From the IMG/VR virus record IMGVR_UViG_2551306674_000009: 11,334 nt of DNA. One strand, written 5' to 3'. The first letter of the stretch is position 1. Every line of letters begins with the position of its first letter. A model generated the notes under the pieces. The model did no database searches and was not told the origin of the DNA. It saw only the letters and a list, made by a program, of their open reading frames with translations. Shown here in pieces: positions 1 through 11,334 of this stretch. The position numbers were made by a program, and so were the translations under genes. Origin of the DNA: a virus (Duplodnaviria; Heunggongvirae; Uroviricota; Caudoviricetes).

Positions 1-200
1 TGTCAGTTATCATCTTCGGTTACGGTTATCGGCAGAACGCCCTGCCGCTGACAAGAGCTTATTTGCCTGACCAATCTACTTCACATGATAGATAACTATC
101 ATTTATAACATTTCATTGATTAGCCTTTATTTTTCATTGCGTTACAAATAACAGCCCTGTCAAAAACAGCGAAATTAACTACACCATTAACTACACCGTT

Positions 201-240
201 TCACGAACAATATCGAACAACCACGAACAAAGATCAACAC
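201..240 (+). repeat. Four tandem 10-bp units (tcacgaacaa / tatcgaacaa / ccacgaacaa / agatcaacac), consensus NNACGAACAA
   Basis: Read directly; 10-bp helical phasing; same motif recurs at 9431-9460 and, inverted, at 513-526. Confidence 0.6.
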
Positions 241-330
241 GCTTTAACCGTTATCATTTTCCGGCTATCCGTTATAAAGCTGGTGGATGTTCCCCGATAT
301 GGGGATCCCCACCTACCGGAATTTTTGCCA

Positions 331-580
331 GGTTAAATGTTAACCGCTGCCCTGTTAACATTTTTACCAAAAAGGTAGTTAACATTTTTTGCACGTAACC
401 AGACGAATCATAAAGACAAAATCAACAACAACGCTTCATCAGGCAGTTAACATGTTAACTACTACGAAACGGTAATTTTTTCTCTGCGTGAGAGGGGGCG
501 CGGTGTCCAGCTTGTTCGTTGTTCGTAGCTAACCACTCCCCCCCATACCGGATTTTTTTTCCGGTTAACAGTTAATCAGG
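331..580. promoter_or_regulatory. Cluster of GTTAAC(A)-containing motifs including a perfect 16-bp palindrome AGTTAACATGTTAACT (446-461)
   Basis: At least six TGTTAAC-type motifs within 250 bp (331-345, 352-366, 378-391, 446-461, 561-577) plus hairpins ccccgatatgggg (289-301) and accgga-T8-ccggt (547-565). Confidence 0.35.
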
Positions 581-662
581 CTGGTGGGCTTTACCTGTTC
601 GGTAGGTGTTATGATTATCGTAATACCTTTCCCCCAATGGGGTAAAAGCATCAACCGTAACG

Positions 663-1080
663 GTAATCGTTATGGTTGCCTTGATGATCTGCGTGGTGAT
701 TATCATCACCCAAAATCTGGGTGTTACTCTTACTACCCAAACTACGGGTAGTTTCCGTAGTTTCATAGTCGAGTTGCAGATCTGCAACTCCCCCATCAAC
801 CACAGGCGAATTTCCGCCTTCGGTCATTCCTTAATCATCTGCGTAATCATAATGATTATTCAGCCAGCGCAATTTTGCGCTTTGCTTTAAGTTCAACCAG
901 TTACCGCCAGCTTCCCCCAATGGGGGATTGTGGAATAATCAACGGTTTAGGCCTTAATCATCTGCGTAAACATAAGTAATCATAATGATCATTCAGCCAG
1001 CTCAATTTTGAGCTTTGCTTTAAGTTCAGCGAGTTGCCGCCAGCTTCCTCAAATTGAGGTTTCCGAAAATATCAGCGGGT
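663..1080. repeat. Tandem structured repeat units (~125 bp: 829-952 and 953-1080, plus a diverged copy 663-828), each with three hairpin/palindrome modules
   Basis: Units B and C align end to end; paired substitutions keep the stems intact (agcgcaattttgcgct vs agctcaattttgagct; cccccaatggggg vs cctcaaattgagg). Unit A has its own hairpins (aaactacgg-N7-ccgtagttt; gagttgcagatctgcaactc). Confidence 0.6.
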
Positions 1081-1214
1081 TAGCGATTAAGCTGACCATT
1101 AATTAAACTGCGAAAATTTCGTAGTTTGTGACTGTCTTTCAGGCAGCTTGTTAACAGTCCTCAGAAGCGAGGGATGTAGCCACCCATTTTGGGGCCGTCG
1201 GGAATATCAACCAG

Positions 1215-1496
1215 TTACCGCCGCAACCGCTCCGGCTTCTTCCAGTGGTACGTTATTTTCTCCTTCTCCCGATACATCTCCACGCGGCGACGGTAGGCCA
1301 GCAACTCAAGAACTCTGGTTCGTATGTTGCGCATATCCACGCCATTAAGTTCTATACCATCACGGCGCATCACCTCAGCAACAACACGCGCATAGTTTTC
1401 GGCTGTCACGCTGTCCGGCTGCGTGGCCTGTTCGTCAGCCTGCTGGCTGATTCCGGCGACGCGGCGGATTAATCCCAGTAGTTCGGCTTCTGTCAT
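1215..1496 (-). CDS. Hypothetical protein (93 aa)
   Basis: ORF with GGGGG Shine-Dalgarno 4 nt before the ATG; begins immediately outside the cosQ side of the cos site at 1531. No recognisable family. Confidence 0.45.
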   Translation of the reverse strand: MTEAELLGLIRRVAGISQQADEQATQPDSVTAENYARVVAEVMRRDGIELNGVDMRNIRTRVLELLAYRRRVEMYREKEKITYHWKKPERLRR

Positions 1497-1530
1497 TGTG
1501 CCCCCATCGCTCTGATAGTCTGGTGTCGTC

Positions 1531-1735
1531 GGGTCCTTCCTGGAATTATGGCCCGTTACGGGGCGGCGACCTCGCGGATTTTATCTGTTTATGAAAATTT
1601 TCTGGCAAAAGTCAGATCCGTTCTTCTTCTCTGTAACAGATTGTTTAACAATGAAAACATTAAAAAAAGAAAGGATCTGACACGAGGCATTTTAGCCAGA
1701 AAATGCCATTATCAGATCCTTTCTCATTTTTGTTC
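1531..1735 (+). other. Lambda-type cos site (cosQ-like, cosN 1561-1572, cosB with three R-like elements)
   Basis: Exact lambda cohesive-end 12-mer GGGCGGCGACCT at 1561-1572, followed by cgcggattttatctgtttatgaaaatttt (compare lambda CGCGGGTTTTCGCTATTTATGAAAATTTT); R-like elements at 1614-1626 (+), 1667-1686 (inverted) and 1714-1725 (+), core cAGATCC(g/t)TTCT. Confidence 0.75.
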
Positions 1736-1751
1736 AATAATTGCGCTGCGG

Positions 1752-2294
1752 TTACTCACGTTTCTTCTGTAGCAACTTTTCCGGTACGTTTCCGGTTGTT
1801 TCGGCCAGGTAATCAGCCAGTATCTGCGGAAGGTTGTCGGCAACTCTGGCACTGGCATTACAGGCTTTAACCACTTCCCTTTTAAGCCCATCCAGCATGG
1901 CGGGGGTAATCTGTGGGAAGCTCCTTTGCATCGTAAGCGGTAGGCTGTCCATGATTGAAGAAATCTGACTCGCCAGTTTTGAAAGCGCGTACATGCAAAA
2001 CTCTGTATCAATTACGTCACCGCGATCGCGCTCGTTTTTAAGTTCCTGCGCCTCCGCCTGGGCGGTCAGTAATCTGATCCTGACTCGTAAGAGTTCATCA
2101 TCATCAATCTCGCCTTTGTCGTTTGTAACCTGGTTAATTACATTGCTTACCCGATTGTCTATCACGCTGGCAACATCGTAAAAAGCCTCGCGTCCTTTAC
2201 GTTCAACGGGAGTCACTCCCCACTTGTCGAACGCTGTCGCACTTACACGGCAGCTTTTCGCCATGTTTTTTTTGTTCATCAGGTGCGATTTCAT
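1752..2294 (-). CDS. terS: Terminase small subunit, lambda Nu1-like
   Basis: C-terminal two thirds align closely with lambda Nu1 (LTAQAEAQELKNERDRGDVIDTEFCMYALSKLASQISSIMDSLPLTMQRSFP vs LTRAQADAQELKNARDSAEVVETAFCTFVLSRIAGEIASILDGLPLSVQRRFP); N-terminal DNA-binding region diverged. Start set at the second ATG (MKSHL) because it has a GGGGA SD; the ORF track begins 12 nt upstream at 2306. Confidence 0.85.
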   Translation of the reverse strand: MKSHLMNKKNMAKSCRVSATAFDKWGVTPVERKGREAFYDVASVIDNRVSNVINQVTNDKGEIDDDELLRVRIRLLTAQAEAQELKNERDRGDVIDTEFCMYALSKLASQISSIMDSLPLTMQRSFPQITPAMLDGLKREVVKACNASARVADNLPQILADYLAETTGNVPEKLLQKKRE

Positions 2295-2423
2295 CAATAT
2301 CCCCACTTAAGTAATGTTTCAGGTTGGTGTATTGGTTTTATCTTTCCCTTTTTATTCATAGAGATAGAGCGAACAACAAAACCACCACCAGCACCCGAAA
2401 AAGGCTCATAAATAGTGAAAACG

Positions 2424-2470
2424 CGCGAGGTCGCCGCCCCGTAACGGGTCCATATGCCGGAAAGGACCCG
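2424..2470 (-). other. Second cosN-containing repeat (cosQ-like + cosN + start of cosB), inverted relative to 1531-1577
   Basis: Reverse complement of GGGCGGCGACCT at 2428-2439; on the minus strand reads cgggtcctttccggcatatggacccgttacg|GGGCGGCGACCT|CGCGCGTTTTCACTATTTATGA, closely matching the remembered lambda right-end/left-end junction. No R-like elements between it and terS. Confidence 0.7.
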
Positions 2471-2494
2471 TAAAAAAAGCCGGATTTCTCCGGC
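2471..2494 (-). terminator. Rho-independent terminator after the head operon
   Basis: Minus strand: gccggagaaatccggc followed by TTTTTTT, directly after the stop of the 137-aa gene. Confidence 0.7.
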
Positions 2495-2499
2495 CTGTC

Positions 2500-2913
2500 T
2501 CAGATGGTTTTCAGTATGCGATCGATGTCGCCGTCATCGCCCGGGTTTCTGCCATCGTATGCCATGCCAGCTGATACGGCTTGCGGGCTGTGCATGTCCA
2601 TAAAGTTTTCAAAGGCTGCGGTAAGCTCCGGCGCAACCCTCGGACGTTCCTGCTCTATGGTCATGCTAAGGATGCTTTTAGCCGTACCAACATCGATACA
2701 AGGCACGTTTGCCATTGCACGTAACAGCGGCTGATAGTCGCCAGATTCATCAAGCGCCATAATCGCATCAGCGCGCGGCTTGTCCTGCTCTTCCAGTTTG
2801 TTAAGTTGATATATGGCCTCGTAGGTTGATAACCCTCTGTCAGCCATTGCCCGCGCTTCGGCTTTAAATTTACTCGCCAGCGGTAGCGTCATGATGCTTT
2901 CATTCGTTGCCAT
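2500..2913 (-). CDS. Hypothetical protein (137 aa), last gene of the head operon
   Basis: ORF with AGGGGG SD; sits after the gpD-like gene and before a terminator. No confident family assignment. Confidence 0.55.
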   Translation of the reverse strand: MATNESIMTLPLASKFKAEARAMADRGLSTYEAIYQLNKLEEQDKPRADAIMALDESGDYQPLLRAMANVPCIDVGTAKSILSMTIEQERPRVAPELTAAFENFMDMHSPQAVSAGMAYDGRNPGDDGDIDRILKTI

Positions 2914-2925
2914 CGTTCCCCCTGC

Positions 2926-3261
2926 TTATCGCGCCAGCGGCTGAACGGATACGCCAGAACCAGCAAAGGCGGCGCATTTTTTCGCGTCAGTGTCGGCGCT
3001 TTCAGGCCAGTTTACGGCGGCGATATTAAATATCCCCGTCTTGTAACACTGTGCTGATTTCTGCGTCGACGTGTCCACGGGGTACGAGGTCAGATAAACA
3101 GCCTTGCCAGATTCCTGACCATCCCACGCCTTAAACTCGCCATTGTCCGCCAGCATCAGCGGGGTAAATTCCTGAATAACGCCAGCATCAGCGGCAAAAT
3201 GTACCAGCGTCGTGGATACCTGCTGGCTGCCTGCAAATAACTCAATGTATGGAGTGTCCAT
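2926..3261 (-). CDS. Head decoration protein, lambda gpD-like
   Basis: 111 aa; aligns with lambda gpD (TPLMLADNGEFKAWDG vs TPLMLDTSSRKLVAWDG; KKCAAFAGSGVSV vs KRTAFAGTAISIV); GGGGG SD. Confidence 0.85.
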   Translation of the reverse strand: MDTPYIELFAGSQQVSTTLVHFAADAGVIQEFTPLMLADNGEFKAWDGQESGKAVYLTSYPVDTSTQKSAQCYKTGIFNIAAVNWPESADTDAKKCAAFAGSGVSVQPLAR

Positions 3262-3272
3262 AGAATCCCCCG

Positions 3273-4328
3273 TTAAGCAATTTTGACAGTAACAAATTTG
3301 CGAATATCTGCCGGAACCGGCTGCGGTGCGCTGTGCGTCTGCACGTACTCAATCGCCGGATCGCCGTCCTCAATCCAGTTTTTCGGGTAGTACATGTTTT
3401 GCGTTGCCTTCGTTCTTACTGCGTCCTGATCCATAATCGCACCATAGGCCACCAGCCCTTTATTGTTGGTGTTGCCCAGGACCAGCAAATCAGGTTCAAG
3501 GAAATATTTTTCTGTGCCGTCGCTGTCGGCGTATTTGCCGGAATAGACGATAAGGGCAATATCGCCCAGATAGCCTTTAAAGCTCACCACTTCGCCCAGG
3601 TTTTTACAGGCCAGTTCGGCGGCGGATTCTGAACCACGGGAAAGATCGTACAGCTCACGGAATTTTTTAAAGCTGCGTAACGTGCGCCATACCTCAGCGC
3701 CCATAATCATGACGTTTGCGGGGCAACCAGCCTGATCAGCATAAAGCTCGATGTCATAGATTGGATCGTGCATCTCTTTATCCTGCTCGGACCATTTTTT
3801 ACCCTTGGCCTGCTCTATGATGCAGTTTTCCGGTATTTTCCAGTCTATTTCATAGCGTTCTATGCCTTCGCCCTCAATAATGTTTTTTCCGGTCGTTATC
3901 GCATTCACCGCCAGCCATTCCACGCGCGCTTTAATGGCGTTTACCTGGCGGCGCATGTTGCCAGTAATCAGGCGCATACGTCGGTAGGTAGGGTCGTTAA
4001 GCTGTGCCGGATCTTCTCCAGCCATGCGCATGATGGTTTTTGTTGGATCGATTTCGTGCTTTGGCTTCATGTAGCCAGGTTTAATCGTGCTGGTTTCGTA
4101 TCCTTTATCGCGCTGTACCTGGCTGCCAACCATAGGCGAACAAAACGCCGACATGGTGACTTCTTCAATGTCCAGGGTATCCAGCATGATGTTTTGGGTG
4201 CTGAATGTCGCCACGTTCGGGAAAAACAGCGTGATAAACAGCGGACTGAATTTAAATTCCGCAATATCCCCGCGATTCAGGTACGCAAAAAGCTGGTTAG
4301 TGTTAAGTGCCGTTGCTTTGCCTGCCAT
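3273..4328 (-). CDS. Major capsid protein, lambda gpE-like
   Basis: 351 aa; conserved blocks versus lambda gpE (FKFSPLF, PGYMKPKHEIDP, DPTYRRMRLI, YPKNWIEDGDPAIEY...SAP). Confidence 0.9.
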   Translation of the reverse strand: MAGKATALNTNQLFAYLNRGDIAEFKFSPLFITLFFPNVATFSTQNIMLDTLDIEEVTMSAFCSPMVGSQVQRDKGYETSTIKPGYMKPKHEIDPTKTIMRMAGEDPAQLNDPTYRRMRLITGNMRRQVNAIKARVEWLAVNAITTGKNIIEGEGIERYEIDWKIPENCIIEQAKGKKWSEQDKEMHDPIYDIELYADQAGCPANVMIMGAEVWRTLRSFKKFRELYDLSRGSESAAELACKNLGEVVSFKGYLGDIALIVYSGKYADSDGTEKYFLEPDLLVLGNTNNKGLVAYGAIMDQDAVRTKATQNMYYPKNWIEDGDPAIEYVQTHSAPQPVPADIRKFVTVKIA

Positions 4329-4534
4329 TATTCACCCCCATAATTTTTATGCATCCCAAGCGCCGCAAGTAAATAAGAGCGCACAAGTGAACCTATCGAC
4401 GGCTCCGGCGTCATCAGCGGATCCAGTCCAGCCGCTACGCCAGCCTCATAGTTTTTTTTGTGGCGCTGCTTGAGCACCTCCACGATTTCGGGGCTTATGT
4501 ACACCGAAACACCGCCTTTTTTCTCTTCTGCCAT
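4328..4534 (-). CDS. Small protein (68 aa), first gene of the head operon
   Basis: Stop overlaps the capsid start (TAATG); AGAGGA SD; beta-strand/helix pattern (VSVYISPEIVEVLKQ) could be RHH-like. Function unknown. Confidence 0.5.
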   Translation of the reverse strand: MAEEKKGGVSVYISPEIVEVLKQRHKKNYEAGVAAGLDPLMTPEPSIGSLVRSYLLAALGMHKNYGGE

Positions 4535-4567
4535 AGTCAGAAATTCCTCTTTGACTTAAAAAATCAC

Positions 4568-4618
4568 AACTGGATGTTCATCCAGTTATGATTATAATCA
4601 TGATTGCATTTTGCGCAA
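4568..4618 (-). promoter_or_regulatory. Head-operon promoter with SOS-box-like operator
   Basis: Minus strand -35 TTGCGC (4613-4618), 16-bp spacer, -10 TATAAT (4591-4596); palindrome aACTGGATGAACATCCAGTt (4568-4587) just downstream of the -10 has the CTG-N10-CAG LexA-box geometry. Confidence 0.45.
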
Positions 4619-4696
4619 TAAAATTGAGTTGTGTTGCAAATTATGAAATGGTTTACAGCAACAGTAGTCACCATGCTGTTAACCTCGTAAGCAAAA

Positions 4697-4735
4697 GCCC
4701 GATAAGCTTCCTCCTGTACTTATCGGGCTTTTTTT
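4697..4735 (+). terminator. Rho-independent terminator (plus strand; weak on minus)
   Basis: gcccgataag-N12-cttatcgggc followed by TTTTTTT on the plus strand. Confidence 0.6.
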
Positions 4736-4741
4736 GGGCGC

Positions 4742-4763
4742 AAAAAAGCCGGATTGCTCCGGC
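4742..4763 (-). terminator. Rho-independent terminator after the 74-aa gene
   Basis: Minus strand: gccggagcaatccggc followed by TTTTTT; same sequence family as the terminators at 2471-2494 and 5105-5128. Confidence 0.7.
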
Positions 4764-4783
4764 TATGTGTGCTGTGTGCTGGC

Positions 4784-5008
4784 TCAGTCTCTGATCTCTT
4801 TCAGAAATTCTATCAATGCATCTATCTGTTCAGGATTTACCGCCAGCATTTCACCGGATAGAGCACATCTCACAAAACCATGCTGATCCTTTTCAATCAG
4901 TGCGCCCGTCTCCAGGAATGCGCGGTAATCATTGATGCTCATCGTCTCCATGTTGTCAGCATGGTATTTATCACGCTGTTTTAATATCTCATCAAATTTC
5001 ATCGGCAT
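4784..5008 (-). CDS. Hypothetical protein (74 aa), stand-alone moron-like gene
   Basis: AGGAAA SD; terminator upstream (5105-5128) and downstream (4742-4763), so apparently its own transcription unit between the replication and head modules. Confidence 0.55.
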   Translation of the reverse strand: MPMKFDEILKQRDKYHADNMETMSINDYRAFLETGALIEKDQHGFVRCALSGEMLAVNPEQIDALIEFLKEIRD

Positions 5009-5104: not shown

Positions 5105-5128
5105 AATAAAAGCCGGATTTCTCCGGCT
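5105..5128 (-). terminator. Rho-independent terminator ending the replication/regulatory operon
   Basis: Minus strand: agccggagaaatccggct followed by TTTTATT, directly after the PerC-like gene stop. Confidence 0.65.
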
Positions 5129-5134
5129 GTTTGA

Positions 5135-5969: not shown

Positions 5970-6165
5970 ACCTCTCACTTTTTCGCCTCACTTTTTCAAG
6001 CGTCTCACTTCGTCGCAGTTGGGATTTTCGGTTTTTCTATGTGTGTGTTTCATAAGTATTTTTTTACCCCTCACTTTTGAGGATGTATACAGGTCGAAAA
6101 GTGAGGGAGAGCGGGCTAATTTTGGCCCTCTTTCTATCCCCCTCGCTTTTGCTCCTCACTTTTAT
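5970..6165. repeat. Putative replication origin: CTCACTTTT iterons flanking an AT-rich stretch
   Basis: Copies at 5974-5982, 5987-5995, 6004-6010 (degenerate), 6070-6078, 6097-6105 (inverted), 6142-6150 (degenerate), 6155-6163; AT-rich 6020-6068; immediately 3' of the rep gene. Confidence 0.65.
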
Positions 6166-7562
6166 AGCGGCGCTACATCATCCCCATCGATACGAATAAC
6201 CCCATCTTTTTCCAGCTTGTACAGCCAGCGCCGGAAGTTTTTCATTTCATACCCCAGCTTTTTCATGTCATCACGTAACAGCGGGATCGTGCACTTGTCG
6301 CCGTTCTGTGTGCGTGAACGGATGCACCCCCATAGCGCGGTATGGTTTTCCGTCTTGTTCCCTGCCTCCTCGATGCGCTCCAGTTCAACAGGAGGGCGCG
6401 GATCATCCACCACCACCAGCGACGTGATTAATTCACCGTCAGCGTCGGTAAAAAGCTCCACCACGCGTAAGTCATATGCGGCTTCTTTGAGTTCCTCCGC
6501 GTCCTTCATTTTGGTGCATGAGATAACCAGCGCTTCGCTTCCTGCGTCCTCCCTGCGTATCCGGTATTCAGCATCCAGCGAAGCACGAAATGCACTGGAA
6601 CCGCGCGCGCCTTTCGTCTCATCCTTGCCGGAATGGTGAACCACCAGCACCGTGGCCCCTGTGCGTCGTTTCAGTTCGTCACAACCACGGATAAACGCCC
6701 CCATATCACGGGAATCATTTTCATCATTCCCACCAAAGCAACGCGCCAGCGTATCCAGAATAATCATGCGTACAGGTTTACCCGTTTCCCGCTCCACCTG
6801 ACGGGCAGCGATAACCATTTCATCAACATCAAGCGGGGCAGCCGGAAAGATGGGGCGGTTTACCAGATACAGATTTTTCACCTGCTCATCGTGCACAACC
6901 TCCCAGGCTTTTACACGACGCGGAACACCTATACCGCCTTCACCAACCACATAGAGAACCGCACCATGTGCAACCCTGCGGCCTCCCCACTGGCGACCAG
7001 TGGCAACATGGCACGCCCACGATCCGGCAAGGAATGATTTATAGGACCCGCTAGCCCCGTATATGCTGCATAGCGATACCGCCGGAATAATCCCCTTAAC
7101 CACGTAATCCAGTTGCGTGTCGTATCCGGTAGATCCAACGCTCATCGGTAGCGTGGTTTTTCGCTGGTGGTTTTTTTCTTCCGCCGGCTCTTTCCCGCGC
7201 ACCCGTTCCAGGTATTCGCGCCAGTTCTCCCGCATATGGCTGTGCATCCCTTCGGGGTAATAATTCGCATCAGTTACACCCGCCGCCGCCAGCTTGTGCG
7301 CAATGGCATTAATATTTGATGGCCTGATGTGGCCTGCCTTGTACAGCCGGACACAATAGCGCCCCTCGTCGATGATTCTCAGGTCTGCCAGTTCATCCAG
7401 TTGATCATCAGCCAGCACAACGGGAGGCACATTATCGCCAGCCAGTCGCCCGTCCTGTTCCTGCCACTGTTTCGCATGTGCCCAGGCATCACTACCCGCA
7501 AAAATAATGACTTCGGTCATCTTGTCGTAAGGCTGTTTTTTTAAGTTCGGTGCGCTTTTCAT
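6162..7562 (-). CDS. Replication initiator/helicase, RepA-like (AAA_25-type RecA-fold ATPase)
   Basis: 466 aa; Walker A GASGSYKS, Walker B-like MIILDTLARCF, VLVVHHSGKD; C-terminal winged-helix-like region; ATGA overlap with the upstream ORF. Confidence 0.8.
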   Translation of the reverse strand: MKSAPNLKKQPYDKMTEVIIFAGSDAWAHAKQWQEQDGRLAGDNVPPVVLADDQLDELADLRIIDEGRYCVRLYKAGHIRPSNINAIAHKLAAAGVTDANYYPEGMHSHMRENWREYLERVRGKEPAEEKNHQRKTTLPMSVGSTGYDTQLDYVVKGIIPAVSLCSIYGASGSYKSFLAGSWACHVATGRQWGGRRVAHGAVLYVVGEGGIGVPRRVKAWEVVHDEQVKNLYLVNRPIFPAAPLDVDEMVIAARQVERETGKPVRMIILDTLARCFGGNDENDSRDMGAFIRGCDELKRRTGATVLVVHHSGKDETKGARGSSAFRASLDAEYRIRREDAGSEALVISCTKMKDAEELKEAAYDLRVVELFTDADGELITSLVVVDDPRPPVELERIEEAGNKTENHTALWGCIRSRTQNGDKCTIPLLRDDMKKLGYEMKNFRRWLYKLEKDGVIRIDGDDVAPL

Positions 7563-8335: not shown

Positions 8336-8555
8336 TTTCACAATCAGCAATCAGGATAGCTTTGGCCTCATTCAGAGCCATATCAGCACTAAGTTGCATA
8401 ACCGCCAGCGAATGAGGAACGAAAGCCCCGGCATATTCTGTTTCACTGGTGGCGTGCTTATGCGCCCTGTCAGCAATAACAGAAATATCAATAAGCGCGT
8501 GCATCAGCGTAGTGAGCGCGGCGGCGGTTGCGTCCGGTGTGGTTTTATTGTGCAT
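8316..8555 (-). CDS. Hypothetical protein (~79 aa)
   Basis: ATG at 8555 with AGGGGGA SD (ORF-track start at 8597 is GTG). Confidence 0.45.
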   Translation of the reverse strand: MHNKTTPDATAAALTTLMHALIDISVIADRAHKHATSETEYAGAFVPHSLAVMQLSADMALNEAKAILIADCENGGGYA

Positions 8556-8745
8556 AGGTTTCCCCCTGGCGAATACGGGCGGCGAATACAGCAACACAAC
8601 CTGACGGGCAACGGTTACGCGCTTCGCGTTCCGTCCAGGCGGTTACGTGGATGATTTGAGATTCTCCGGCACTCAGTGCCAGAAAACGCCACACAAAGGC
8701 CGTTTGTGTGTGTACAAGGTGTGGGGTATGATTTACGGCAACCAT
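8545..8745 (-). CDS. Hypothetical protein (66 aa), first gene of the replication operon
   Basis: ATG with GAGGAG SD at optimal spacing; preceded by a structured leader and the divergent promoter region. Confidence 0.55.
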   Translation of the reverse strand: MVAVNHTPHLVHTQTAFVWRFLALSAGESQIIHVTAWTEREARNRCPSGCVAVFAARIRQGETYAQ

Positions 8746-8819
8746 AACGGCTCCTCGTTTACGTTGTTGGTTAGAAGCCCGTTGGTGTTCATAGCGCCAG
8801 CGGGCTTTGCTTTTGTGGT

Positions 8820-8880
8820 GTCATTGGTATACATTGTCACCGTAAGGCCATTATTATACTCGAGGTATACAATGTCAACC
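8820..8880. promoter_or_regulatory. Divergent promoter/operator region between the RHH gene and the replication operon
   Basis: Two direct copies of GGTATACAWTGTCA(A)CC (8826-8840, 8864-8879), each overlapping a -35-like hexamer; plus strand TTGTCA-N15-TATACT, minus strand TTGACA-N14-TATAAT. Confidence 0.5.
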
Positions 8881-9048
8881 AATGACAACAAAAAGGAAAG
8901 GTTTTCCGTACAGCTTCGTCTTGATGCTGACTTATTCGAACGCTTAAGCATCGCCATGAAAGAAGATGGCGATGATAACCGCTCAGGATGGATAAAAAGG
9001 CTTTTGCGCCGTGAGTTGGATAAACGCGGCATAGAATCAAAAGAATAA
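8872..9048 (+). CDS. Ribbon-helix-helix (Arc/MetJ/CopG-like) DNA-binding protein, candidate repressor
   Basis: 58 aa: KERFSVQLRLDADLFERLSIAMKEDGDDNRSGWIKRLLRREL fits the beta-alphaA-alphaB RHH pattern; GAGGT SD; divergent from the replication operon. Confidence 0.7.
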   Translation: MSTNDNKKERFSVQLRLDADLFERLSIAMKEDGDDNRSGWIKRLLRRELDKRGIESKE

Positions 9049-9333: not shown

Positions 9334-9430
9334 TAGCCTTGTCCACCAGCTACGGCGGTGCTAAGATTGAAAGCTGCATAAGTCATGAAAATAAACTCCT
9401 TAGCGGTGCATACGCGCCGCTTCTTTTCTT

Positions 9431-9460
9431 CACGAACAACCGCGAACAAGTACAAACAAA
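9431..9460 (+). repeat. Three tandem 10-bp units (tcacgaacaa / ccgcgaacaa / gtacaaacaa)
   Basis: Same NNACGAACAA motif and 10-bp phasing as 201-240; lies just 3' of alpA. Confidence 0.55.
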
Positions 9461-10095: not shown

Positions 10096-11334
10096 TCAAG
10101 AATTTTGAGAGTAAATTCGCGGGGTCATAACAACGATTTTTTCATCATTGTTCTGGAGAAGCTCGAGACGCTCAACCCATAGATTAAGAGCGTCACGTTT
10201 TGCATCGAGATAACGGGAGTGATTATAGACTCGTTGCATTCCTGGCAACTGGTGCGCGGTTAGCTGCTCCACTACATGAGGATCCACGCCTAAATCGTTC
10301 AGCATCGTTGTAAACGTGTGCCGGATGTCGTGCAACGTCCAGGGGGCTTGATTAATACGTCTGTGTGCCGTTCTTCCGTACTCTGATACGGATGATTGCC
10401 CTTTCAGTTCTCCGAGCAATAATCCCGTGTGCCTGTTCTGCTCCACCAGCTTCGTTACGAACGGCAAGATCGCTTCCGGTATTGGCCTGAATATTGCTAC
10501 CTTCGTTTTGCTGTGTTCTTTCGGCACGGTCCAGAGCATTTCTTTAAAATCCCATTCCTGGAGCTCAGAGCGTCTTAGCTCAGTGGTACGACATCCGAAG
10601 ACAATCAGGAGGCGAATCAGGGCGCTGTAGTACGGTGGGTAAATTTTTTCATCCAGGGCGCGGAGTAATTCCCCAAGCTCCTTGTTTGTTAGTACGCGCT
10701 CGCTTATTTCTGCTTTTTTCCCAACATCACCTACAACCATATCATCTAGAACGTTGGTAATTGCGTAGCGTCGTTTGCGGCAGTACTTAAGCGCCTGCTT
10801 GCATACCTGTAACAAAAATCCTGCTGATACCGGATTACGCTTAGCAAGCTGATCAAAACAGGTCAGCCAGTGGCGTAGCTCGCATTTTTCCAGCGGCATA
10901 GCACCAATCTGGCTGATTATGTGTGTATTGATCCGGCTCTTCAGAGATTCGTAGTCTGTGCGCTTTTCCTTCGCGTACGATTCAAGCCAGTAAGTGAGCG
11001 CTTCCTTAACCGTAACAGGTGATAACGCTTCCTGTACGGTGTGATTAAGCTCATGGCGTGGATTTTTCCCCTCAGCAAGCCAGGCGCGACACTGCGCCGC
11101 TTTTTCCCTGGCTGCTTTCAGGCTCAAATCAGGATAATTTCCCAGCCTCAGACGTTCAGGGGATACCTTCCTGCCTGTTCCGGCCCTGTAAGTGAAATAC
11201 CAGGTTAACAGGCCATTGGTTGAATGCCTTACGCTAAGGTTGCCACCATCATTAAAAAAGGTGTTTTTTGTGGTTGGTGATCCGCTTAATTTTCGTAAAA
11301 GAGTGTCGCTAAGTCTATGAATTGCCCTGCTCAT
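10096..11334 (-). CDS. int: Tyrosine integrase, P4-type
   Basis: 412 aa; N-terminal arm-binding-like region, C-terminal catalytic residues (HDIRHTF ... VYNHSRY). Start codon is at the last bases of the window, so the true 5' end could lie beyond the edge. Confidence 0.85.
   Translation of the reverse strand: MSRAIHRLSDTLLRKLSGSPTTKNTFFNDGGNLSVRHSTNGLLTWYFTYRAGTGRKVSPERLRLGNYPDLSLKAAREKAAQCRAWLAEGKNPRHELNHTVQEALSPVTVKEALTYWLESYAKEKRTDYESLKSRINTHIISQIGAMPLEKCELRHWLTCFDQLAKRNPVSAGFLLQVCKQALKYCRKRRYAITNVLDDMVVGDVGKKAEISERVLTNKELGELLRALDEKIYPPYYSALIRLLIVFGCRTTELRRSELQEWDFKEMLWTVPKEHSKTKVAIFRPIPEAILPFVTKLVEQNRHTGLLLGELKGQSSVSEYGRTAHRRINQAPWTLHDIRHTFTTMLNDLGVDPHVVEQLTAHQLPGMQRVYNHSRYLDAKRDALNLWVERLELLQNNDEKIVVMTPRIYSQNS

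What the first reader, a model, noticed from the sequence alone, without database searches (positions are those of the whole stretch)
663..1080. Tandem ~125-bp structured repeats with compensatory substitutions in the stems
Between units B (829-952) and C (953-1080), paired changes preserve base pairing in two hairpins (agcGc...gCgct to agcTc...gAgct; ccCcC-aat-GgGgg to ccTcA-aat-TgAgg), and the first palindrome differs between units (ggtgattatcatcacc, aatcataatgatt, atcataatgat) while staying symmetric. Conserved structure with changing sequence argues for selected RNA or ssDNA structure rather than a sequence-specific protein site. Candidates include a tandem small-RNA array, a P4-style RNA immunity element, or a structured DNA recognition element.
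Basis: seen in the sequence. Interest (0 to 1): 0.8.

Follow-up and report, generated by a model that had tools for sequence, protein, structure and literature searches.

The report
Mosaic hairpin array in phage satellite
The non-coding tail of an E. coli phage satellite (a PICI island) is built from short, reshuffled modules, each a probable IHF-binding site plus a small palindrome whose two arms change together; it resembles the host's REP/BIME repeats more than a small-RNA gene array, and its function is untested.

Summary
Units B (829-951) and C (952-1085) are true tandem copies, and their stems differ by paired, complementarity-preserving changes. 'Unit A' shares only its roughly 35-nt head.

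The 125-bp unit is composite. The whole spacer from the stop codon of the last late gene (ORF93, 1215-1217) to a conserved Chi site (579-586) is a mosaic of 45-65-nt modules. In 49 distinct versions from 106 related islands it is 165-734 nt long, with 3-4 times the expected number of hairpins.

The commonest module is a conserved box plus a 5-11-bp hairpin with strong covariation. The box matches the IHF consensus WATCAANNNNTTR: 108 matches in one orientation, none in the other.

Nothing marks a dedicated RNA:
- both strands fold equally well;
- inner stems almost lack G-U pairs;
- many palindromes are perfect to a single central base;
- there is no Rfam family and no per-unit promoter.

The island is a known EcCICFT073/CP-933C-type PICI, and the array is confined to such islands.

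Best reading (confidence 0.4): a satellite-borne, BIME-like array of palindromes and IHF sites at the 3' end of the packaging operon, next to attP. I found no description of it in the papers searched. P4-style RNA immunity is not supported.

The parts
1201..1222 (-). First module box. The perfect IHF consensus TATCAACCAGTTA (1205-1217, + strand) overlaps the ORF93 stop codon (1215-1217).
   Evidence: sequence
1183..1193 (.). Hairpin of the first (class II) module, CCCAttttGGG. In the O55:H7 relative the same position reads GCGCAATTTTGCG.
1105..1127 (.). 23-nt near-palindrome AAACTGCGAAaatTTCGTAGTTT with one G.T position. It is a perfect palindrome in other islands.
1159..1172 (.). Hairpin CCTCagaagcGAGG.
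1037..1084 (-). Class I module of unit C. Box TATCAGCGGGTTA at 1070-1082 (one mismatch to the IHF consensus) and hairpin CCTCAaatTGAGG at 1047-1059.
   Evidence: covariance model R1, 67 bits
999..1037 (-). Class II module of unit C. Hairpin AGCTCAatttTGAGCT at 999-1014 and a degenerate box at 1025-1037.
952..991 (.). Head of unit C: CCTTAATCATCTGCGT, a 10-nt insertion, and the palindrome ATCATaATGAT (979-989).
904..951 (-). Class I module of unit B. Perfect IHF consensus AATCAACGGTTTA at 937-949 and hairpin TCCCCCaatGGGGGA at 913-927.
   Evidence: R1, 57 bits
866..903 (-). Class II module of unit B. Hairpin AGCGCAatttTGCGCT at 866-881 and a degenerate box GTTCAACCAGTTA at 891-903.
829..858 (.). 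Head of unit B: CCTTAATCATCTGCGT plus the 15-bp perfect palindrome TAATCAtaaTGATTA (844-858). The half-site AATCAT recurs at 833-838.
679..828 (.). 'Unit A': the shared head (679-694) followed by five unrelated hairpins at 695-710, 707-723, 739-763, 771-790 (a 20-bp perfect palindrome) and 804-819. Overlaps an annotated but doubtful 58-aa ORF, 651-827(-).
587..679 (.). Conserved terminal segment of the array. Contains the hairpin CAACCGTAACGgtaatCGTTATGGTTG (651-677; its loop varies between islands while the stem is kept) and TTCCCCCAATGGGG (629-642).
579..586 (+). Chi site GCTGGTGG bounding the array. It lies in the segment conserved in 106 related loci.
1215..1496 (-). ORF93, the last gene before the array. 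It belongs to phrog_1561, of unknown function.

Best explanation
**What it is**
The repeats are one part of a hypervariable, non-coding mosaic. It fills the space between the last gene of the satellite's packaging operon (ORF93) and the attP arm. It is made of short modules that have been tandemly duplicated, diverged and reshuffled between islands.

The commonest module, read on the window's minus strand, is YTAAC-NNN-YTGAT(A/T)TTTYCGRAAA, then a short palindrome, then ARRYCGG. On the plus strand the box reads as an IHF site, WATCAANNNNTTR, flanked by an A/T tract. The palindrome keeps its symmetry while its sequence changes.

**How it most likely works**
I read it as the satellite's own equivalent of the host's BIME-1/RIB-type elements, which combine palindromic units with an IHF site at the 3' end of a transcription unit.
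- IHF would bind and bend the DNA at the boxes.
- Transcribed as the untranslated tail of the terS-ORF93 message, the palindromes would fold into hairpins. These would protect the 3' end and damp read-through across attP towards int. In the excised circle int lies next, on the same strand.

**Shown and inferred**
- Shown: anatomy, covariation, consensus match, copy-number variation, and position relative to ORF93, attP and int.
- Inferred: IHF binding, transcription, and any effect on mRNA or read-through.
For: - **Module anatomy.** It is seen in 49 distinct arrays from 106 loci.
- **Hairpin excess.** Density is 3-4 times shuffled expectation in every array (z 2.2-7.1). In the window it is also well above the rest of the sequence.
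- **Covariation.** 5 of 6 stem pairs show changes on both sides. There are 28 such cells against 8.2 in shuffles, and 43 against 12.7 in the larger set (0 of 500 shuffles each); slid controls are low.
- **IHF consensus.** The arrays hold 64 perfect and 44 one-mismatch matches, all in one orientation and none in the other, in 25 kb. The only two perfect matches in the 11.3-kb window lie in the array.
- **Where the box varies.** Most of the variation in the box falls at the consensus N positions.
- **Positive control.** In phage lambda the same pattern finds 4 sites, and 3 of them are the known attP sites H1, H2 and H'.
- **Specific placement.** Covariance model R1 hits only downstream of ORF93 and only on the ORF93-sense strand. 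It finds nothing comparable elsewhere in 94 kb of E. coli and PICI DNA or in lambda.
- **Position.** The first box overlaps the ORF93 stop codon. In a circular PICI the order is ORF93-like gene, array, attP, int, all on one strand.
- **BIME parallels.** Published BIME properties include an IHF site in the linker, location at 3' ends of operons, copy number varying between strains, and roles in mRNA stability and termination (PMC3333891). Other small repeats with IHF sites and RNA hairpins are reviewed in PMC2229807.
Against: - Nine of 49 arrays have no IHF-like box. They carry other hairpin modules instead, for example four GTGAC repeats at 10-11-bp spacing. IHF therefore cannot be the universal requirement.
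- The palindromes are much shorter than REPs. They lack REP sequence, and all modules point the same way rather than alternating.
- On the sense strand the hairpins lack U-runs, so they are not canonical terminators. The canonical terminator-like hairpin the scan found in this island looks different (2477-2496), and related copies lie at 4744-4769 and 5108-5133.
- There is no expression, binding or deletion data of any kind.
- The extreme turnover between near-identical islands suggests weak constraint on content.
Confidence: 0.4

Rival explanations
1. Dedicated non-coding RNA or RNAs. The array is transcribed from its own promoter, on either strand, into a structured RNA or a string of small RNAs. 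These would act in trans or antisense to the ORF93/terS message.
For: - Very strong folding of the region (z about -6) and covarying stems.
- Three + strand hairpins followed by T-rich runs look like terminators: 707-723, 866-881 and 999-1014.
- A weak -35/-10-like pair, TTTACC-17-GATTAT at 591-619 on the + strand, lies in the conserved terminal segment. This is my own reading of the sequence and falls below the scan's threshold.
- An outer helix around the class I hairpin shows the series G-C, G-U, A-U and never A-C on the ORF93-sense strand.
Against: - No Rfam family at gathering score. The best sub-threshold hit is manA RNA at 20 bits against a cut-off of 55.
- No folding asymmetry between strands.
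- Single-mismatch stems are G.T-type and A.C-type about equally often once duplicates are removed.
- The inner stems are almost free of G-U pairs.
- Palindromes are perfect through the 'loop' more often than expected.
- No promoter-like site passed the scan's threshold on the + strand in the array.
- Content and copy number differ wildly between near-identical islands.
- No complementary target was found elsewhere in the island.
Confidence: 0.12
2. A purely DNA-level architectural element. The multiple IHF-induced bends fold the DNA between cos and attP, helping integrase or excisionase complexes, or terminase, to work. The palindromes would be incidental or would aid DNA deformation.
For: - The IHF consensus evidence.
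- The array lies between attL/attP (core at 85-102, arm repeats at 174-197) and the two cos sites.
- Predicted IHF sites also sit where lambda has them: next to the att core (109-121) and between R3 and R2 of cosB (1634-1662).
- The evidence that the palindromes are symmetric at the DNA level.
Against: - The boxes lie more than 300 bp from the att core and about 350-900 bp from cosN, outside the usual extent of these complexes.
- The number of boxes ranges from 0 to 6 and their spacing is irregular (44 to 144 bp).
- Islands without any box exist.
Confidence: 0.15
3. A non-functional by-product. The region is a tolerated junk spacer that grows and shrinks by unequal recombination between repeated boxes. 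Its palindromes are kept perfect by template-switch (quasipalindrome correction) mutation rather than by selection.
For: - Hypervariable length and module order among islands that are otherwise 88-99% identical.
- Recombinant units exist, for example AGCTCA...TGCGCT in L013 and a hybrid unit in L003.
- An IS element is inserted in the array in one locus, and the array is truncated in another.
- Perfect odd palindromes are over-represented, which one-step template switching would produce.
Against: - All 106 loci that could be anchored retain at least about 165 nt with 4 or more hairpins, despite the general bacterial bias towards deletion.
- The box is conserved exactly at the IHF consensus positions across diverged modules.
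- The high hairpin density is not matched across the rest of the island, although two other 500-nt bins are also raised (8 in 4501-5000, 7 in 8501-9000).
Confidence: 0.2
4. Single-stranded-DNA hairpins that act as priming or initiation signals on the displaced strand during rolling-circle replication of the satellite.
For: A cluster of short hairpins with conserved flanks resembles single-strand initiation sites (from general knowledge). The island encodes its own RepA-type helicase.
Against: - The array is the same in islands with different replication genes: a RepA helicase in the window, and primase-type proteins in L001, L085 and L160.
- PICI origins are placed next to the rep gene (PMC6092414).
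- No array motif recurs near rep.
Confidence: 0.05
5. Small protein genes, for example the annotated 58-aa ORF at 651-827(-) or a short peptide ORF in each unit.
For: RefSeq annotates a hypothetical protein here in related strains. The ORF is open in all 8 alleles seen.
Against: - No family match in Pfam, PHROGs or NCBIfam.
- The variable sites split 4 non-synonymous to 3 synonymous, with no codon-position bias.
- The ORF is absent from most arrays.
- Its sequence is made of back-to-back palindromes.
- Units B and C carry stop codons in all three frames (my reading of the sequence).
Confidence: 0.03

Closest known systems
E. coli BIME-1 / RIB-RIP elements (REP palindromic units with an IHF site in the L linker)
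   Same: - Extragenic mosaic of palindromic units and an IHF consensus site.
- Sits at the 3' end of a transcription unit.
- Copy number varies between strains at the same locus.
- Can form hairpins on either strand (PMC3333891).
   Different: - No sequence similarity to REP y, z1 or z2.
- Palindromes are only 13-25 bp, and their sequence is free to change.
- All modules point the same way instead of alternating.
- Restricted to PICI islands (26% of genomes, 1-6 places each) rather than hundreds of copies per chromosome.
Correia/NEMIS and ERIC small repeats
   Same: Roughly 100-150-bp intergenic elements that combine an IHF site with transcribed stem-loops affecting the stability of neighbouring mRNA (PMC2229807).
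   Different: Those are dispersed, transposon-like units with terminal inverted repeats and a fixed sequence. Here there are no terminal inverted repeats, and the modules form one local tandem array.
IHF sites of lambda attP (H1, H2, H') and cosB (I1)
   Same: The same consensus, and the same family of element (a lambda-dependent cos satellite). The pattern recovers H1, H2 and H' in lambda, and it finds att- and cosB-adjacent sites in the window.
   Different: The array boxes lie outside the expected att and cos footprints, are reiterated 0-6 times, and are each coupled to a palindrome.
P4 satellite CI RNA immunity and P4 crr (120-bp direct repeats needed in cis for replication)
   Same: A satellite of an enterobacterial phage with tandem non-coding repeats of about 120 bp and a P4-type integrase.
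   Different: - No matching RNA family in Rfam.
- No seqA/seqC-like complementary targets.
- The repeats carry no iteron shared with the replication region.
- The array sits after the packaging genes, not in the immunity or replication region.
EcCICFT073 / CP-933C (OI-51, Sakai Sp7) PICI family
   Same: The window is a member. It has an int with a P4-type arm-binding domain, a replication gene, PerC-like and SSB-like genes, gpE- and gpD-like capsid genes, a Nu1-like TerS and two cos sites (PMC6092414; PMC3378721).
   Different: - The papers read describe the genes and the cos sites, not this non-coding array.
- This island is integrated upstream of clpS.
- It has lambda-like R repeats of altered sequence.

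Membership tests
REP/BIME | REP consensus sequence (y, z1 or z2 palindromic unit ending ...CTTATCMGGCCTAC, with a GTAG tag) | tested here: not met
   0 matches with up to 3 mismatches in the window.
REP/BIME | Hundreds of dispersed copies in every E. coli chromosome | tested here: not met
   The array sequence matches only 1431 of 5426 genomes, at 1-6 places each. Every locus inspected was a PICI or a PICI remnant.
REP/BIME | Palindromic units in alternating orientation separated by linkers, one linker type carrying an IHF site | tested here: inconclusive
   Palindromes alternating with IHF-consensus boxes are present. However, all modules are co-oriented (108 to 0), and the palindromes are symmetric, so they have no orientation of their own.
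IHF binding site | Match to WATCAANNNNTTR with an adjacent A/T tract | tested here: met
   Perfect matches at 937-949 and 1205-1217, and a one-mismatch match at 1070-1082. 64 perfect matches across 49 arrays. The pattern recovers lambda H1, H2 and H'.
IHF binding site | Physical binding and bending by IHF | not testable with these tools
   Needs a gel-shift assay, footprinting or ChIP.
P4-type CI RNA immunity | A processed stem-loop RNA whose sequence is complementary to target sites in the leader of the replication operon | tested here: not met
   No Rfam match. The repeat search of the whole window finds no direct or inverted match between the array and any other region.
Tandem small-RNA or type III antitoxin (ToxI-like) array | Near-identical short repeats, a promoter upstream, and an adjacent toxin endoribonuclease gene | tested here: not met
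   Units are 60-82% alike with indels. The scan found no promoter-like site on the + strand in the array and only one on the - strand. The neighbouring ORF93 has no family match beyond a PHROG of unknown function.
Structured RNA under selection (generic) | Covariation that includes G-U intermediates, and stability specific to one strand | tested here: inconclusive
   Covariation is strong, but the inner stems are almost free of G-U pairs. The two strands fold equally well. Only an outer 4-bp helix shows a G-C/G-U/A-U pattern.
Intrinsic terminators | G+C-rich hairpin followed by a U-run on the transcribed strand | tested here: not met
   None on the operon (minus) strand within the array. Three weak ones on the + strand at 707-723, 866-881 and 999-1014. 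The canonical terminator-like hairpin of the island, at 2477-2496, looks different, and related copies lie at 4744-4769 and 5108-5133.
EcCICFT073-type PICI (context) | int, replication gene, lambda-type capsid and TerS homologues, two cos sites, about 11 kb, att-flanked | tested here: met
   compared with PMC6092414 and PMC6739421.

The most novel reading that the evidence does not exclude
The array is a functional, self-diversifying cis element specific to lambda-dependent PICI satellites. In this reading, a string of IHF-bent, hairpin-prone modules sets how efficiently the satellite is transferred. It could do so by shielding the untranslated operon tail from Rho and exonucleases, so that late transcription runs on through attP into int in the excised circle. 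Or it could do so by folding the DNA between cos, Chi and attP. Module number would then act as a tunable dial.
Probability: 0.15. Interest if true: 0.6.

Novelty: new variant of a known kind. Interest (0 to 1): 0.42.

Why it matters
PICI satellites of the EcCICFT073/CP-933C type are present in about a quarter of complete E. coli genomes. They are being engineered as DNA-delivery vehicles. Even so, 0.2-0.7 kb of each island is an undescribed non-coding mosaic with clear signs of constraint: conserved arm complementarity and a conserved protein-site consensus.

If the array affects the stability of the packaging-operon message, read-through into int, or IHF-dependent folding near attP and cos, it would be a new control point in the satellite life cycle. 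It would also be a part to keep, or to tune, in synthetic islands.

It is also a compact natural case for asking how BIME-like mosaics arise and diversify, because dozens of recombinant versions are available in one defined locus. If it is merely tolerated junk, it still marks a recombination-prone spot useful for typing these islands.

Tried and rejected
- **Tandem Repeats Finder.** It did not report the 125-bp repeat.
- **Rfam.** Nothing at gathering score, and only a sub-threshold manA hit.
- **Known host repeat family.** Rejected.
- **Phage origin.** No similarity in 50,697 phage records. The few plasmid hits are misassembled or excised islands.
- **ORF93 as a clue.**
  - No Pfam, NCBIfam or PDB match.
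  - The single-sequence AlphaFold model is a low-confidence three-helix bundle with no fold match.
- **Cargo-gene hotspot idea.** No island had genes inserted between the modules. What was found was an IS element, a truncation, or an adjoining element.
- **crr-like or origin link.** Array motifs, including the GTGAC iterons of other islands, do not recur near rep.
- **Strand test by mismatch type and by folding energy.** No asymmetry.
- **Box pattern in IMG/VR outside ORF93 contexts.** The hits are unrelated sequences, some of them other small IHF-site elements, and not homologues.
- **Literature.** Searches for a description of this array, for IHF in PICIs, and for small RNAs in CP-933C found nothing relevant.

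Full report
**Context**

The window is a phage-inducible chromosomal island (PICI) of the EcCICFT073/CP-933C type.

- Its genes, all on the minus strand:
  - an integrase with a P4-type arm-binding domain (10096-11334);
  - a RepA-type helicase (6162-7562);
  - a lambda gpE-like capsid protein (3273-4328);
  - a gpD-like decoration protein (2926-3261);
  - a Nu1-like small terminase (1752-2306);
  - a 93-aa ORF of unknown function (ORF93, 1215-1496, phrog_1561).
- Two inverted copies of cosQ/cosN flank the terminase gene (1530-1601 and 2399-2470). This is the arrangement published for EcCICFT073 (PMC6092414, PMC6739421).
- Window positions 1-106 match the region upstream of clpS in K-12, so the island's left junction is at about 107.
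- The O55:H7/O157:H7 relative lies between phoQ and roxA. That matches the position (between the ycfD gene and phoQ; printed 'ycdF' in the paper) that PMC3378721 gives for OI-51/CP-933C.
- The finding lies in the roughly 1.1-kb non-coding stretch between ORF93 and the left end of the island.

**The observation**

- Units B (829-951) and C (952-1085) are genuine tandem copies. 115 nt align without gaps at 82% identity, their heads are 96% identical, and C has a 10-nt insertion.
- The head motif CCTTRATSATCTGCGT occurs three times, at 679, 829 and 952. None of 200 shuffles gave three matches.
- 'Unit A' shares only this head and the palindrome after it. The rest of 679-828 is a different run of five hairpins, and it folds far better than shuffles on both strands (z -6.8 and -6.1).
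- A further partial unit lies at 1178-1222. Its box overlaps the ORF93 stop codon.
- Copy number varies between strains: L003 has one hybrid unit and L001 has two.

**Anatomy from related islands**

I anchored on ORF93 and on a conserved Chi-containing segment, and collected 106 loci that give 49 distinct arrays.

- The span from the ORF93 stop to Chi is 165-734 nt.
- Every version has 3-4 times the perfect hairpins expected from dinucleotide shuffles.
- In the window, the 501-1000 bin has 10 such hairpins, against about 2-3 per 500 nt elsewhere.
- Written out, the arrays are mosaics of a few module types.
- The commonest module, on the ORF93-sense (window minus) strand, has three parts in order: YTAAC-NNN-YTGAT(A/T)TTTYCGRAAA, a 5-11-bp stem with a 3-4-nt centre, and ARRYCGG.
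- The next TAAC often follows about 48-54 nt after the previous one, though spacings range from 44 to 144 nt.
It contains a class I module, a class II module (GCGCA-type stem with a 4-nt centre) and a head module. In the head module a palindrome's half-site recurs a few bases away.

**Covariation**

- In a gapless alignment of 22 distinct class I modules, 5 of 6 stem pairs show changes on both sides. I removed one spacer T from one of these sequences to keep the alignment gapless.
- That alignment has 28 double-change cells against 8.2 +/- 1.9 in shuffles (0 of 500). Slid controls give at most 6.
- Stems include CCTCA, CCCCC, CAGCC, CCTGC, TTCGCC and TTCCACA, each with its exact complement.
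- A covariance model built from this alignment finds the module only downstream of ORF93 and only on the ORF93-sense strand. The window hits are 1037-1084 (67 bits) and 904-951 (57 bits). It finds nothing comparable in 94 kb of flanking chromosome and island DNA, or in phage lambda.
- On the 39 distinct matches from 55 loci the result holds: 43 double-change cells against 12.7 +/- 2.3.

**The conserved box is an IHF consensus**

- On the window's plus strand the box reads TTTCCGAAAATATCAACGGGTTA. This is WATCAANNNNTTR with an A/T tract beside it.
- The only two perfect matches in the whole window are in the array, at 937-949 and 1205-1217.
- A one-mismatch match lies at 1070-1082. Other one-mismatch matches sit next to the att core (109-121) and between R3 and R2 of the lambda-like cosB (1634-1662), which is where lambda has IHF sites.
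- Across the 49 arrays there are 64 perfect and 44 one-mismatch matches in one orientation, and none in the other.
- Most of the variation in the box falls at the consensus N positions.
- As a control, the pattern gives four perfect hits in lambda. Three are the known attP sites H1, H2 and H'.
- Binding itself is inferred, not shown.
- Nine arrays lack any box and carry other hairpin modules. One such module has four GTGAC repeats at 10-11-bp spacing, and this motif occurs nowhere else in those islands. Hairpins are therefore the universal feature, and IHF boxes the common one.

**RNA or DNA?**

- Arrays fold equally well as either strand. Mean z is -6.2 against -6.6, and the sense strand is the more stable in 27 of 49.
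- After removing duplicates, single-mismatch stems are G.T-type and A.C-type about equally often.
- The inner stems contain at most 2 G-U cells.
- Of 30 distinct stems with a 3-nt centre, 20 are in fact perfect odd palindromes (11.8 +/- 2.4 expected, P about 0.001). Centres are A/T-rich, while stems are about 49% G+C.
- These features fit symmetry at the DNA level, or one-step template-switch correction, better than selection on one RNA strand.
- The one contrary hint is an outer 4-bp helix, YCGR with YCGG, around the class I hairpin. Its variable pair is A-U 11, G-C 11, G-U 11 and never A-C on the sense strand. This could equally be a TCGG direct repeat.
- No Rfam family reaches its threshold.
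- On the operon strand the hairpins lack U-runs. The canonical terminator-like hairpin the scan found in the island, at 2477-2496, looks different, and related copies lie at 4744-4769 and 5108-5133.

**Position in the life cycle**

A 10,790-bp 'plasmid' record, NZ_CP148328.1, is an excised circular island. It shows the order ORF93-like gene, array, attP, int, all on one strand. The attP has the core ATGATAGTTATTTATCAT and arm repeats GGTGTAGTTAAT x2 on each side. Transcription leaving the packaging operon therefore crosses the array and attP before reaching int.

**Interpretation**

- The closest known kind is the host's BIME-1/RIB element. That is a set of palindromic units with an IHF site, at the 3' ends of operons. 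It varies in copy number and is credited with mRNA stabilisation, attenuation and DNA structuring (PMC3333891).
- Correia and ERIC repeats are looser parallels (PMC2229807).
- The array is not a member of that family. It has no REP sequence and no genome-wide spread, and its modules are short and co-oriented.
- I therefore file it as a satellite-specific variant of that kind and commit, at 0.4, to a dual role: IHF-bent DNA, and a hairpin-rich untranslated operon tail.
- The rivals are:
  - a neutral recombination-prone spacer (0.2);
  - a DNA-only architectural role near attP and cos (0.15);
  - a dedicated RNA (0.12);
  - priming hairpins (0.05);
  - small ORFs (0.03).

**Novelty**

I found no description of the array in the PICI, cos or CP-933C papers I could read.

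Noticed in passing
window 1530-1760 (+) and 2399-2470 (-): Two inverted 72-nt cosQ/cosN copies flank terS. The + copy is collinear with lambda cosQ-cosN-cosB. It has three R-like sequences (1611-1628, 1664-1681 inverted, 1712-1730) that read CAGATCC(G/T)TTCT where lambda has CGTTTCC(G/T)TTCT. Reviews state that PICI cos sites lack R repeats, so this island, with its own full-length Nu1-like TerS, looks different.
   Followed up: partly
window 279-286, 579-586 (+); 10444-10451 (-): Chi sites (GCTGGTGG). The copy at 579-586 bounds the array and lies in a segment conserved in 106 loci. It is oriented to be recognised by RecBCD arriving from the cos side. Some relatives (L160, L037) carry Chi in the other orientation.
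   Followed up: partly
window 85-260: attL anatomy:
- K-12 homology ends at 106.
- Core palindrome ATGATAGATAACTATCAT at 85-102.
- Tandem arm-type repeats ATTAACTACACC x2 at 174-197.
- CGAACAA repeats at 200-241. They recur inverted at 512-526 and again at 9429-9460, near the early regulatory region.
   Followed up: partly
window 327-460: Five GTTAAC-centred repeats (GTTAACATTTTT and similar, direct and inverted). They lie in a roughly 300-bp insert that some relatives lack, and they look like operator-type protein sites.
   Followed up: no
L059, L061, L075, L044 and others, just downstream of ORF93: An alternative array module: four GTGAC repeats at 10-11-bp spacing, followed by ACGT-core palindromes (ACGGTttaACCGT, ATGACGTggccaACGTCAT). 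It is found only in the array, not near the replication genes.
   Followed up: partly
L160 (NZ_CP148328.1, whole record): A 10,790-bp 'plasmid' is an excised circular PICI with a different head module (a protease-capsid fusion and a DUF1441 protein). It has the same ORF93-like gene, array and attP-int junction.
   Followed up: yes
L083 about 4325 onward; L084 about 4480: An IS3-family element is inserted immediately after the first array hairpin in one island. In another, the array is cut off at the phoQ junction.
   Followed up: no
window 651-827 (-): A 58-60-aa ORF annotated as a hypothetical protein in RefSeq relatives. It is open in all 8 alleles but made of back-to-back palindromes, with no family match and no codon-position bias in its variation.
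   Followed up: yes
window 712-881 (-): A sub-threshold Rfam match to manA RNA (20 bits against a cut-off of 55, E = 0.015). I regard it as chance, arising from a multi-hairpin model.
   Followed up: no
window 2475-2500, 4744-4769, 5108-5133: A family of similar hairpins of the form AAAAGCCGGATT.CTCCGGC. The scan, which covered only 1-2600, called 2477-2496 terminator-like on the minus strand; the other two copies were seen only as repeats. They are useful as a contrast to the array hairpins.
   Followed up: no
L169 3600-3720, also L171 and L186: In unrelated viral contigs, a roughly 95-bp element bounded by the inverted repeats TTCAGGCTGC and GCAGCCTGAA. It carries a perfect IHF consensus (TAACTCATTGATT), a T tract and a 14-bp palindrome. 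It appears to be an independent small IHF-site repeat.
   Followed up: no
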